From the NCBI RefSeq assembly GCF_036588685.1, contig NC_086379.1, positions 24,118,001-24,182,000 of the forward strand: 64,000 nt of DNA, in the 5' to 3' direction. The notes beneath the pieces were generated by a model, which worked only from the letters and a program-made list of their open reading frames with translations, did not search any database and was not told the origin of the DNA. Of this stretch, positions 20,523 through 51,530 are shown one piece after another (the first letter of the stretch is position 1; each line of letters starts with the position of its first letter). The translations under genes and the position numbers were made by a program. This DNA comes from Mytilus trossulus (lineage: Eukaryota).

Positions 20523-20566
20523 GCACCAGATGCGCATTTCGACAATACATGTCTCTTCATTGATGC
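20523..20566 (-). ncRNA. Hammerhead copy with core mutation C3>A
   Basis: AUGAAGA instead of CUGAAGA; otherwise identical to 20875-20918. Confidence 0.8.
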
Positions 20567-20874
20567 TCGTGGCCAAAACATTTGAAATCCAAAGCTTATA
20601 TAAAAGATGAAGAGCTATAATCCAAAAGGTCCAAAAAGTATAGCCAAATCCGTGAAGGTAATCAGAGCCTTGCATGAGGGAGATACGTTCCTTAATTTAT
20701 AATAATTTATAATATTTTGTAACAGCAAATTTTAATAACACTAAAAAATCCGTATTTTCATGCCAGTACCGAAGTACTGGCTACTGGGCTGGTGCTACCC
20801 TCGGGGACTAATAGTCCACCAGCAGAGGCATCGACCCAGTGTATGAAATAAAATTACGGTACCAATATTTTCTT

Positions 20875-20918
20875 GCACCAGATGCGCATTTCGACAATAC
20901 ATGTCTCTTCAGTGATGC
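20875..20918 (-). ncRNA. Minimal type I hammerhead ribozyme, core intact
   Basis: GCAUCA-CUGAAGA-GACA uguau UGUC-GAAA-UGCGC-AUC^UGGUGC. Confidence 0.88.
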
Positions 20919-21095
20919 TCGTGAGAAATGCACATAATATATGATGAATGCACATAAGATATGATAAATATTTGTATGGATTACCTTACTGATATGATGA
21001 ACAAACGTATTCCAAAAAGTAAAACATATAGTAAGAAAAAAGGGAAAAACGACACTTGTGCAAAAAATAATTTTTAATTAACAACAATTTGGTAA

Positions 21096-21101
21096 TTTAT
21101 T
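21096..21101 (-). promoter_or_regulatory. Polyadenylation signal AATAAA of apextrin-like B
   Basis: AATAAA about 40 nt after the stop codon. Confidence 0.55.
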
Positions 21102-48932: not shown

Positions 48933-49826
48933 CTTCTGCGGTGAATATAAAGTTATATATTTATATATTATGAGGGTATACATGTACGCTGAAACCGTAG
49001 AAAAGTTGGAAGTTTTTACGACATCATCTATACTGTATTGACTGTTATAGGGAATCTGCATTACAGATTCTACAGTTAGGTTCATTATACTTTAAAGGAT
49101 TGACTGCTGGGATATATACATGTATCCTATAGATATTTACATTTTATTGAACTTTCCCACCGGAACGTGTAAACTCTGATATTTATATTCCTTTTAGACG
49201 ATGATGGAGAAAGGTCAATCTTTAGATACCCAGTCACTTCACATGGAAATGTGCGGGACATTAATTCTATGATTCTGGTAACGAAAATGACACGTTCTGT
49301 GAAGGAACCATTGCAACCACCCTCTGGGAGTTTATTTAATTGTCTGTTGCGAGGTATTTTTTCTAATTCTTTATTTTAACCTTTCTTGAAATACTTCTTA
49401 TTGTAAGAGTTGTTAATTTGCGATTGTCATGATTATAGGTTTGCATGAAATATTTGCCACTGGGTGAAAGCAAGAAACAATCTTGAATGGCAAAATGCCG
49501 CTCTCCTTTCTTCATTCATGACTATAACCAACAACTGCAAATGAGAGTTGTAACGAGCCACACTATAGTTCAAACAGGTTTTCCTTGATTTATTCTGATT
49601 GATGTAACTTATTTTAAATGTATAGTTTCAGGAGTTATATTATTTGTAGTTTTGTCTTTATTAATATAGCTTTATCTTTTTTTAATTTATGAATTTTGAT
49701 AGCACCCACTGTGTTCTCTTGCTTTTGTGATGCGAATGTGTTCTTATAATATGCATCAACTATCATGTTTTGATTGCGGTAAATTCAAGAACTGAAAGAC
49801 AAAAGTAAAAAGTTATATACACTCAC

Positions 49827-49937
49827 CTTTTTGACAGGAAGTGTGAATAACGACCACGAAGACACTATAAGCTAGCGATGATAACCCTGATCGCCCTTAT
49901 AAATGATAGGACTGATAAGATAGAAACAATGTTACCG
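49827..49937 (-). promoter_or_regulatory. Probable 5' non-coding exon and core promoter of apextrin-like B
   Basis: AAG|gtgagt donor at 49821-49826, TATA-like TTTATAAG near 49896-49903, and a 17-bp motif shared with paralog A at 49921-49937. Confidence 0.5.
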
Positions 49938-50904
49938 TCATTACATGAACAAAAGTAGAGTATTAAAAAAGTGTAAAAGTCTAAAGTGTGAAGAATAGGG
50001 ATAAGATTTTGGTTCTTATATAGATTAGACTTTTGGTTTTCCCGTTAGAATGGTTTGAAACTAGTATTTTTTTTGGTCCTTTAAAGCTTGCTGTTCAGGT
50101 TCAGTGAAAACCAAGGTACCGTGTTGAAGATCGTACTTTGACATATAATGGTTTACTTATACAAATTATGACTTGGATACAGAGTTGTCTCATTGGCACT
50201 CATACCACATCTTCATATATCTATCTACAGAACGGAAATATGAAGATGTGATATAATTCACAATGAGAAAACTATCCATAAACCACAAGACAAAAACGCG
50301 AACAAACACGTGTGATCGTATTGTCTCTTAAATTAAGAAAACTAATACCGTAAAGTATTCTATAAAAGGTCCAGAAGGAGCCTGTAATTTAGTGTTTTTT
50401 GTATTTTACTGTTGATCATATGCGGGTTTCTTTATTGTTTTGTACAGTTCTTGCGATGTTCCGTTGCACCACTGTCCATGGATTAAAAGGAGGGTTGTGA
50501 ACCAGCTAACACGTTTAACTCAGACACATTCTGTATGTGCATGTCCCTATTCAGGAGCATATTATTCAGTGGTTGTCGTTTGTTGTTATATTATACCGGT
50601 TTATTTGTTTTTAGTTAATTTTTTGGTACATTAGTTAGGCCGTTAGTTTTTTCGCTTGAATTATTTTTACATATGTGATTTTTGGTCTTTATAGCTGACT
50701 ATGCGGTTTTGGTTTTGCTCATTGTTGAAGTCTGTATGGTGATCGATAGCTGTTAATTTCTGTGTCATTTGGTCTCTTGTGGAAGGTTGTCTCATTGGCA
50801 ATCACCCCACATCTTCATTTTCATATATTTGTTTTATTCATAAATCAGGCCACCAGTTTTCTCGTTTGATTTTTTTTTAATTTGCTATTTGTTGAATTCT
50901 TGAA

Positions 50905-51530
50905 TGGCGAACCAAGATGTTATGCCACAAACATGAGGTGTTCGACAATAAATGTCCCTTCAGTGATGTTAGGAATCGAAACGGTATTTGGAAGGCCATA
51001 TAATTTACCCTCAATTTAAGATAGAATCTTGAATTTTAAGAGTCAATACAGGATGAACAGATCATATAAACCGGAGGGAAAATATGATACTAGCCCAAAC
51101 GAAGAAATATAAATAAGTCAATATTGAAAACTACGTTCAAATTAATTTCGTTGGATTAAAACCGCAATTGTTAACCCTGATGACTGCTATTGGCGTTTGC
51201 CAAAAAAAAAATTGATCACAAGATGTAACAAAATGGATTTTAATCTAAATTTAAAACTAATAGGAAAACAATAAACTTGTGGCCAATTTGTGTTGCCACA
51301 AACTTGAGTTGTCAATATTTTTGTACATCAGATCCGGATTTCGACAATAAATGTCTCTTCAGTGATGTTAGGGATCGAAACGGGATTTGGAAGGCCATAC
51401 AATTTACCCTCAATTTAAGATAGACTTTAAATTTTAAGAGTCAATATAGGATGAACGCATCATATAAACCATCGGGGAAATATGATACAAGCCCAAACGT
51501 AAAATATAAACAAGTCTAAATCGAAAACAA
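50905..51530 (-). mobile_element. Second retrozyme-like family, ~1.5 tandem units, directly 3' of the fucosyltransferase CDS
   Basis: Homologous to 27990-28905; hammerhead at 51325-51368 and a truncated one near 50941-50970 (399-nt spacing). Confidence 0.8.
51325..51368 (-). ncRNA. Minimal type I hammerhead ribozyme, core intact
   Basis: ACAUCA-CUGAAGA-GACA uuuau UGUC-GAAA-UCCGG-AUC^UGAUGU; helix I fully Watson-Crick. Confidence 0.88.

What the first reader, a model, noticed from the sequence alone, without database searches (positions are those of the whole stretch)
20523..51368. Three hammerhead variants with covarying stems and different perfect 8-bp palindromes in helix III
Seen: helix III is ACGCGCGT (29976), ATGCGCAT (20875) or ATCCGGAT (51325, 28346). 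Each is a different perfect palindrome. Stem II switches GUCU/AGAC to GACA/UGUC, and helix I switches among GCGUCA/UGGCGU, GCAUCA/UGGUGC and ACAUCA/UGAUGU. Known: minimal hammerheads of Penelope-like elements and animal non-LTR retrozymes have short palindromic helix III and cleave as dimers, and such retrozymes have been reported in Mytilus. Inference: the different palindromes would make dimerisation family-specific, a self-recognition code among co-resident RNA replicons.
Basis: partly seen in the sequence, partly recalled or inferred. Interest (0 to 1): 0.7.

Follow-up and report, generated by a model that had tools for sequence, protein, structure and literature searches.

The report
Mussel retrozyme families with palindromic hammerheads
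These are copies of a known kind of small self-cutting RNA jumping element of mussels; each family keeps its own short palindrome, which likely lets two neighbouring copies on one transcript fold together and cut, but the families have swapped these palindromes, so they are unlikely to be a strict self-recognition code.

Summary
The window has five type I hammerheads of three kinds, two with dead cores. They belong to abundant non-LTR retrozymes: A (ACGCGCGT, 354 bp, 23,735 pattern matches; the published Mytilus retrozyme), B (ATGCGCAT, 350 bp, about 5,700), C (ATCCGGAT, about 570 bp, about 3,100). A fourth palindrome, D (ATCTAGAT, about 550 bp, about 700), occurs outside the window. Double changes keep the palindrome at loop positions that cannot pair in a monomer, and natural tandem pairs are predicted to fold as double hammerheads 17-20 kcal/mol below two monomers. 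That supports dimer cleavage in cis, a known mechanism. The self-recognition code is weak: arrays are almost all single-family, so no choice is needed; a published single mussel copy cleaves; C:D hybrids stay stable; palindrome type does not follow element ancestry (AU p = 0.00016). The motifs are canonical, not minimal. Families differ more in their likely helper: A/B share a Naiad start hairpin, C/D insert at (TA)n beside a Neptune-like element. The scan noted these retrozymes, the 551-bp family and the Naiad hairpin before, elsewhere in this genome.

The parts
20496..20923 (-). Family B retrozyme insertion: one 352-bp unit between two hammerheads, ending 33 nt after the second cut site
20875..20918 (-). 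B hammerhead, intact (CUGAAGA, ATGCGCAT, AUC); predicted cut after 20881
20523..20566 (-). B hammerhead, downstream copy, core broken (C3 to A); cut site itself intact at 20529
27982..28909 (-). Family C insertion, about 1.65 units; 3' end at unit position 375 next to (TA)n
28346..28389 (-). C hammerhead (ATCCGGAT), core broken (G8 to A)
29692..30040 (+). Family A insertion, one near-full unit, 96% like a young array unit; includes the Naiad-like hairpin at 29706-29776
29976..30019 (+). A hammerhead, intact (CUGAUGA, ACGCGCGT, GUC); predicted cut after 30013; solo copy
32480..34177 (.). Cluster of four decayed A copies on both strands, all with damaged cores or helices
50941..51528 (-). Older C/D-clan insertion with internal deletion and a second, half-deleted hammerhead near 50941
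51325..51368 (-). C hammerhead, intact core (ATCCGGAT, AUC); helix I 3' strand carries a private change; predicted cut after 51331
24397..24636 (-). C/D fragment without hammerhead, ending at the family's fixed 3' end
31442..31491 (-). C/D 3'-end fragment in the (TA)n tract at the end of the Neptune-like element
30240..31449 (+). 3' part of a Neptune-like Penelope element (GIY-YIG region, minimal hammerhead core at 31332); candidate helper type for C/D
38106..39036 (-). 3' fragment of a Naiad-like Penelope element; candidate helper type for A/B

Best explanation
The motifs are type I hammerheads of tandem non-LTR retrozymes, and each family's palindrome likely pairs with the same palindrome in the next repeat of the same transcript to form a double hammerhead that would cut out monomers. 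Steps: (1) shown: units of 350-578 bp, non-coding, in single-family arrays, transcribed with a sense bias in a related RNA set; (2) predicted: helix III is too weak alone (2 bp), so two adjacent motifs swap strands, giving an 8-bp helix III and two exchanged helices I; a slower monomer route probably also works; (3) from the literature: monomers are circularised by RtcB-type ligase; (4) inferred: a Penelope-type reverse transcriptase copies the circle or multimer from a fixed internal point, Naiad-like for A/B and probably Neptune-like for C/D. Because one sequence supplies both strands, only palindromes survive, and a lineage can drift to a new palindrome through a G-U wobble step. Family-specific pairing is then a by-product of drift, not a selected code.
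For: Loop covariation: GCGC, CCGG, CUAG; 97 of the first 100 listed D-type matches are CTAG and 93 of the first 100 C-type are CCGG, single-step forms rare; three independent 4-nt palindromes would arise by chance at about 0.0005 (the loops are related, so this is generous). Monomer helix III costs +0.8 to +3.2 kcal/mol; double hammerheads lie 17-20.5 kcal/mol below two active monomers. In 4 of 4 natural tandem pairs the double fold beats two monomers by 17-20 kcal/mol and the palindromes pair with p 0.27-0.96. An older A lineage (4 of 4 loci fetched, shared flanks) has ACGCGTGT, which still pairs through G-U. 145 of 153 neighbours are same-family; the 8 mixed ones sit at non-unit spacing or are decayed (loci were chosen by search, not at random). 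Fixed 3' ends away from the cut site: A 26 of 60 chain ends at +34 to +45, B 24 of 33 at +33 to +40, C/D 43 of 80 at +370 to +379 followed by (TA)n. A/B +45 to +115 is 83-86% identical to the start of full-length Naiad-like elements in 3 of 4 loci. C/D lie in 6 of 29 Neptune-like loci against 0 of 52 A/B loci, p = 0.0015. Palindromic loop 3 and the dimer model are general for animal type I motifs (PMC4209133; PMC6765202).
Against: A cloned single mussel repeat cleaves co-transcriptionally at about 0.1 per min (PMC7229834), and the authors' review says most invertebrate motifs work as monomers (PMC7761336); so dimers may help rather than be required. Folding energies ignore Mg2+ and tertiary contacts. 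The strand-symmetry test was weak: wobble-compatible GUGC 851 against mismatched GCAC 709, ratio 1.2, mostly plain decay. A non-palindromic CTAA variant fills 5 units of one D array. Many copies are solo, including 29976. RNA evidence for cutting is thin: a pile of 112 ends at the C site in 1 of 4 runs, possibly inflated by clipping. No sequence match between C/D and the Neptune-like element beyond a short AGAC-like end.
Confidence: 0.72

Rival explanations
1. The motifs cleave mainly as monomers; loop 3 palindromes are an inherited or structural preference (stable tetraloops) with little role in pairing.
For: Published single-copy cleavage; review statement on invertebrate motifs; weak wobble asymmetry; many solo copies.
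Against: CG to UA double change at adjacent loop bases, with intermediates rare; monomer active fold predicted at p 0.0002 or less; published rate is eight times slower than the coral motif.
Confidence: 0.17
2. One reading: the palindromes were selected to differ so that co-expressed families pair in trans only with their own kind, a self-recognition code.
For: Hetero double hammerheads are predicted weaker: A:B -13.4, B:C -12.8, A:C -3.3, A:D +3.0 against -21 to -30 kcal/mol for homo-pairs. A, B and C/D RNAs co-occur in all 4 runs laid. Sister lineages C and D, 84-90% alike, differ in the palindrome.
Against: Cis partners make choice unnecessary. C:D stays at -16.2 with both helices I intact. 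CTAG copies are not one clade on a body-only tree, AU p = 0.00016; the largest lineage (2,411 matches, AUA site) carries the C block on a D-type body. A and B share the loop; C-AUC and C-AUA lineages share the whole palindrome. Helix I, not only helix III, is exchanged in the dimer.
Confidence: 0.1

Closest known systems
Mytilus galloprovincialis non-LTR retrozymes (Cervera and de la Pena 2020, PMC7229834, parts 1-4 of 6 read, supplement not readable; PMC4918200 Additional file 11, one passage seen)
   Same: Type I hammerhead in 350-355-bp low-GC tandem repeats; family A hammerhead and body match the 375-nt published sequence text; two related families reported, as A and B are here.
   Different: The paper gives about 5,000 motifs, two families, 350-390 bp. 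Here there are over 33,000 matches and a further clan (C/D, 548-578 bp) whose body has no similarity to A/B outside the hammerhead. Whether B or C/D is in their supplementary figures could not be seen.
Double-hammerhead cleavage of newt/axolotl repeats and Penelope-element hammerheads (PMC4209133 parts 1-2 read; PMC6765202 passages; Forster 1988 and Lunse 2017 seen only as reference titles)
   Same: Short helix III with palindromic loop; two tandem motifs form the active fold.
   Different: These motifs have a 2-bp helix III and canonical helices I and II, not the minimal form; several palindromes coexist among close relatives in one genome.
Animal retrozymes as non-autonomous Penelope derivatives (Li, Clavereau, Pollet 2026, bioRxiv 10.64898/2026.07.22.740005, parts 1-3 of 5 read)
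   Same: Penelope-type helper; family lengths 51-972 bp cover C/D.
   Different: No mollusc sampled; links are to hammerhead-bearing pLTRs in Xenopus, whereas A/B here share a hairpin with a Naiad-like element, a clade reported to lack canonical hammerheads (PMC8557442 passages).

Membership tests
Type I hammerhead ribozyme | CUGANGA and GAAA core, NUH site, three helices with helix I open | tested here: met
   Met for 29976, 20875, 51325; broken core in 20523 and 28346
Type I hammerhead ribozyme | Self-cleavage after position 17 | tested here: inconclusive
   Read ends pile at the C site in 1 of 4 RNA runs; none listed for A, B or D; no in vitro test possible
Non-LTR retrozyme | Hammerhead once per head-to-tail repeat | tested here: met
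   Arrays with periods 349-355 (A, B) and 548-578 (C, D)
Non-LTR retrozyme | Unit of about 150-450 bp (2020 definition) | tested here: inconclusive
   Met by A and B; C/D are longer but inside the 51-972 bp range of the 2026 preprint
Non-LTR retrozyme | Non-coding, GC below 50% | tested here: met
   GC 0.33-0.38; longest ATG frame 62 aa or less
Non-LTR retrozyme | Expressed as RNA | tested here: met
   A, B, C/D reads in 4 of 4 runs, sense-biased in the three stranded runs; runs are of a coded organism not shown to be this individual
Non-LTR retrozyme | Circular RNA form | not testable with these tools
   Reads across the cut site fit circles, uncut multimers or read-through alike
Minimal Penelope hammerhead | No or 0-1 bp helix III, helix II 6-8 bp, helix I 4-5 bp, bulge after A9, located in a pLTR | tested here: not met
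   A-D have 6/4/2-bp helices, no bulge, no ORF. The Neptune-like motif at 31332 does fit
Autonomous RNA replicon (viroid-like) | RNA-to-RNA replication with both polarities | not testable with these tools
   Antisense reads exist but read-through explains them; genome copies show 5' truncation and fixed 3' ends typical of retrotransposition

The most novel reading that the evidence does not exclude
The palindromes work like mating types: abundant retrozyme RNAs pair in trans, own-family partners activate solo copies, distant families are excluded, and near-compatible C:D pairs bring RNAs together so that the ribozyme block is swapped between bodies, as the largest C lineage shows.
Probability: 0.12. 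Interest if true: 0.72.

Novelty: new member of a known kind. Interest (0 to 1): 0.38.

Why it matters
The kind and the dimer mechanism are known. What this genome adds is a natural mutant series: four palindromes, two on nearly the same 550-570-nt body, with compensation at bases that only a dimer can pair. It questions the published view that invertebrate retrozyme hammerheads act as monomers, and it gives ready constructs to test cis against trans pairing. It also suggests two retrozyme clans using different Penelope-type helpers, with a B-like hammerhead on an unrelated body.

Tried and rejected
Further palindrome families with another stem II: 2,196 matches, the first 100 nearly all decayed A, B or C copies. 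Reads crossing the C/D cut site mostly carry A17 (280 of 343 and 361 of 442 in two runs, 14 of 87 in a third); I first read this as escape of the slower AUA site (PMC1636495, abstract only), but AUA copies are 2,411 of about 3,945 C/D matches in the genome, so no clear enrichment. The depth drop after the C/D site may come from divergence of the dominant lineage from my reference. Wobble asymmetry: only 1.2-fold. Mixed arrays joined at the cut site: none convincing among 8 mixed neighbours. D as mere CpG decay of C: rejected, D has its own loop 2, indel and arrays. No RNA holder was listed by the index; the four raw-read runs came by species label. ARAGORN found no tRNA in the window. No paper on family-specific hammerhead pairing appeared in searches (listings only); none on the long mussel clan in searches. 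The 2020 supplement and Lunse 2017 could not be read and may bear on both points. No covariance model or R-scape test was run; three events are too few.

Full report
Observation. Three have intact cores (29976 +, 20875 -, 51325 -); 20523 has C3 to A and 28346 has G8 to A. The UGAUGU strand quoted for the third family is private to 51325; the family has UGGUGU, keeping a G-U pair seen in 31 of 34 aligned copies. Patterns read backwards give 0 genome matches against thousands forwards, so chance is excluded.

Families in the genome. G000 (1.30 Gb) holds 23,735 matches to the A pattern and 7,596 to the GACA-stem pattern with C at the cut site, of which 1,855 lack G at the third palindrome place, leaving about 5,740 B. 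The rest split into C, ATCCGGAT (800 matches, 93 of the first 100 CCGG) and a fourth palindrome D, ATCTAGAT (734 matches, 97 of the first 100 CTAG, 3 CTGG). A further 2,411 matches have another base at the cut site; 96 of the first 100 are CCGG with A. All counts need an exact pattern and are lower bounds. Units are 354-355 (A), 350-352 (B), 569-578 (C), 548-553 bp (D). A and B are about 70% alike over the unit, C and D 84-90%; C/D match B only over the 37-nt hammerhead, at 86-92%. Family A matches the published 375-nt Mytilus retrozyme text, so the host is read as a Mytilus-type mussel by inference.

Is the palindrome under constraint? In a monomer only the outer two pairs of the 8-mer can form; the inner four bases are a loop. 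The loops are GCGC (A, B), CCGG (C) and CUAG (D). Both changes are double and keep the palindrome; CG to UA concerns adjacent bases that no monomer can pair. On 34 hand-picked copies 3 of the 4 palindrome pairs change on both sides, but this reflects about three events. An older A lineage has ACGCGTGT, still pairable by G-U (4 of 4 loci fetched), which shows a route between palindromes. Against: single mutants in the genome are nearly symmetric, 851 wobble against 709 mismatch, and one D array carries CTAA in 5 units.

How it probably works. Helix III is unfavourable alone (+0.8 to +3.2 kcal/mol) and the active monomer fold has predicted probability 0.0002 or less. In natural two-unit stretches of all four families the double hammerhead is 17-20 kcal/mol below two monomer folds. 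In that fold helix I is exchanged as well as helix III. This is the known dimer model (PMC4209133; PMC6765202). A published single mussel copy does cleave, at about 0.1 per min against 0.8 for coral, so a slower monomer or trans route exists; which family was cloned could not be seen. RNA of a coded organism (4 runs, 2 studies, 6-18% of each read) covers A, B and C/D; in two stranded runs C/D sense depth around the hammerhead is about 11-21 times antisense. Ends at the cut site were listed in 1 of 4 runs only.

Copying. Insertions have variable 5' ends and a fixed 3' end that is not the cut site: +34 to +45 (A, 26 of 60 chain ends), +33 to +40 (B, 24 of 33), +370 to +379 then (TA)n (C/D, 43 of 80). 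So the template likely spans the cut site, a circle or multimer. C/D lack it; they occur in 6 of 29 loci of a Neptune-like element that also ends in (TA)n, against 0 of 52 A/B loci. Helper assignment is inferred; Naiads are also reported to favour (TA)n.

The code idea. Predicted discrimination is real: homo-pairs -21 to -30, hetero-pairs +3 to -16 kcal/mol. But partners are supplied in cis: 145 of 153 same-strand neighbours within 700 nt are one family (selected loci). C:D keeps 7 of 8 helix III pairs and both helices I. All four combinations of C or D hammerhead block with C or D body markers occur. On a tree of 330 body bases, one row per locus and strand (67 of 80 rows kept for coverage, 12 overlapping loci left out, only CCGG and CTAG rows), the 19 CCGG-AUA rows form a clade (100/97) inside a 99/92 clade rich in CTAG rows, and holding the 29 CTAG rows together is rejected, p-AU 0.00016 (with 89 of 107 rows agrees). 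The palindrome block has therefore moved between lineages or been regained, and it does not isolate them. A and B differ at a stem pair, not in the loop.

Comparison and verdict. Family-specific pairing was not found in print. The finding is a new member of a known kind with a known mechanism, plus a useful natural test set. Interest 0.38; the trans-acting code has probability about 0.12.

Noticed in passing
window 25999-26443 (+); core at 26138; L062, L028: A fifth tandem element (441-443 bp, 3,941 pattern matches) with a hammerhead-like core CTGACGA...GAAAGCT, a T run, then a tRNA-like head with apparent A and B boxes (boxes recognised from recall; ARAGORN negative). 96 of the first 100 matches have CTGACGT, a non-canonical core, in young long arrays. 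It inserts at (TA)n and lies in 10 of 29 Neptune-like loci. It may be a retrozyme turning into a Pol III SINE.
   Followed up: partly
G000 C1, for example L205-L218: The largest C/D lineage (2,411 matches, period about 560-577) has an AUA cut site, the C palindrome and a D-type body; it dominates RNA in two of four runs.
   Followed up: partly
window 20875, 28346, 51325: B, C and D use an AUC triplet, called essentially absent from natural hammerheads in a 2006 abstract (PMC1636495).
   Followed up: no
window 30240-31449 (+); L156-L184: Neptune-like Penelope family with 934-aa open frames, a minimal hammerhead (ATAT palindrome) and two alternative 3' ends before (TA)n.
   Followed up: partly
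window 3603-10064 (+): Near-identical 3.6-kb tandem duplication of a non-LTR reverse transcriptase element (RVT_1, zf-RVT).
   Followed up: no
window 51559-52752 (-): Intronless glycosyltransferase family 10 (fucosyltransferase) frame of 397 aa whose stop lies about 30 bases before the C/D insertion on the same strand, so its 3' region could carry the intact hammerhead at 51325.
   Followed up: no
window 55098-55240: GC-rich 42-bp tandem repeat with a 50-bp inverted arm forming a long hairpin; weak microRNA-family matches far below gathering scores.
   Followed up: no
window 13592-13978 and 48591-49091 (-): Two paralogous exons of an unidentified secreted-looking protein, 85% alike; no Pfam match for the one tested.
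   Followed up: no
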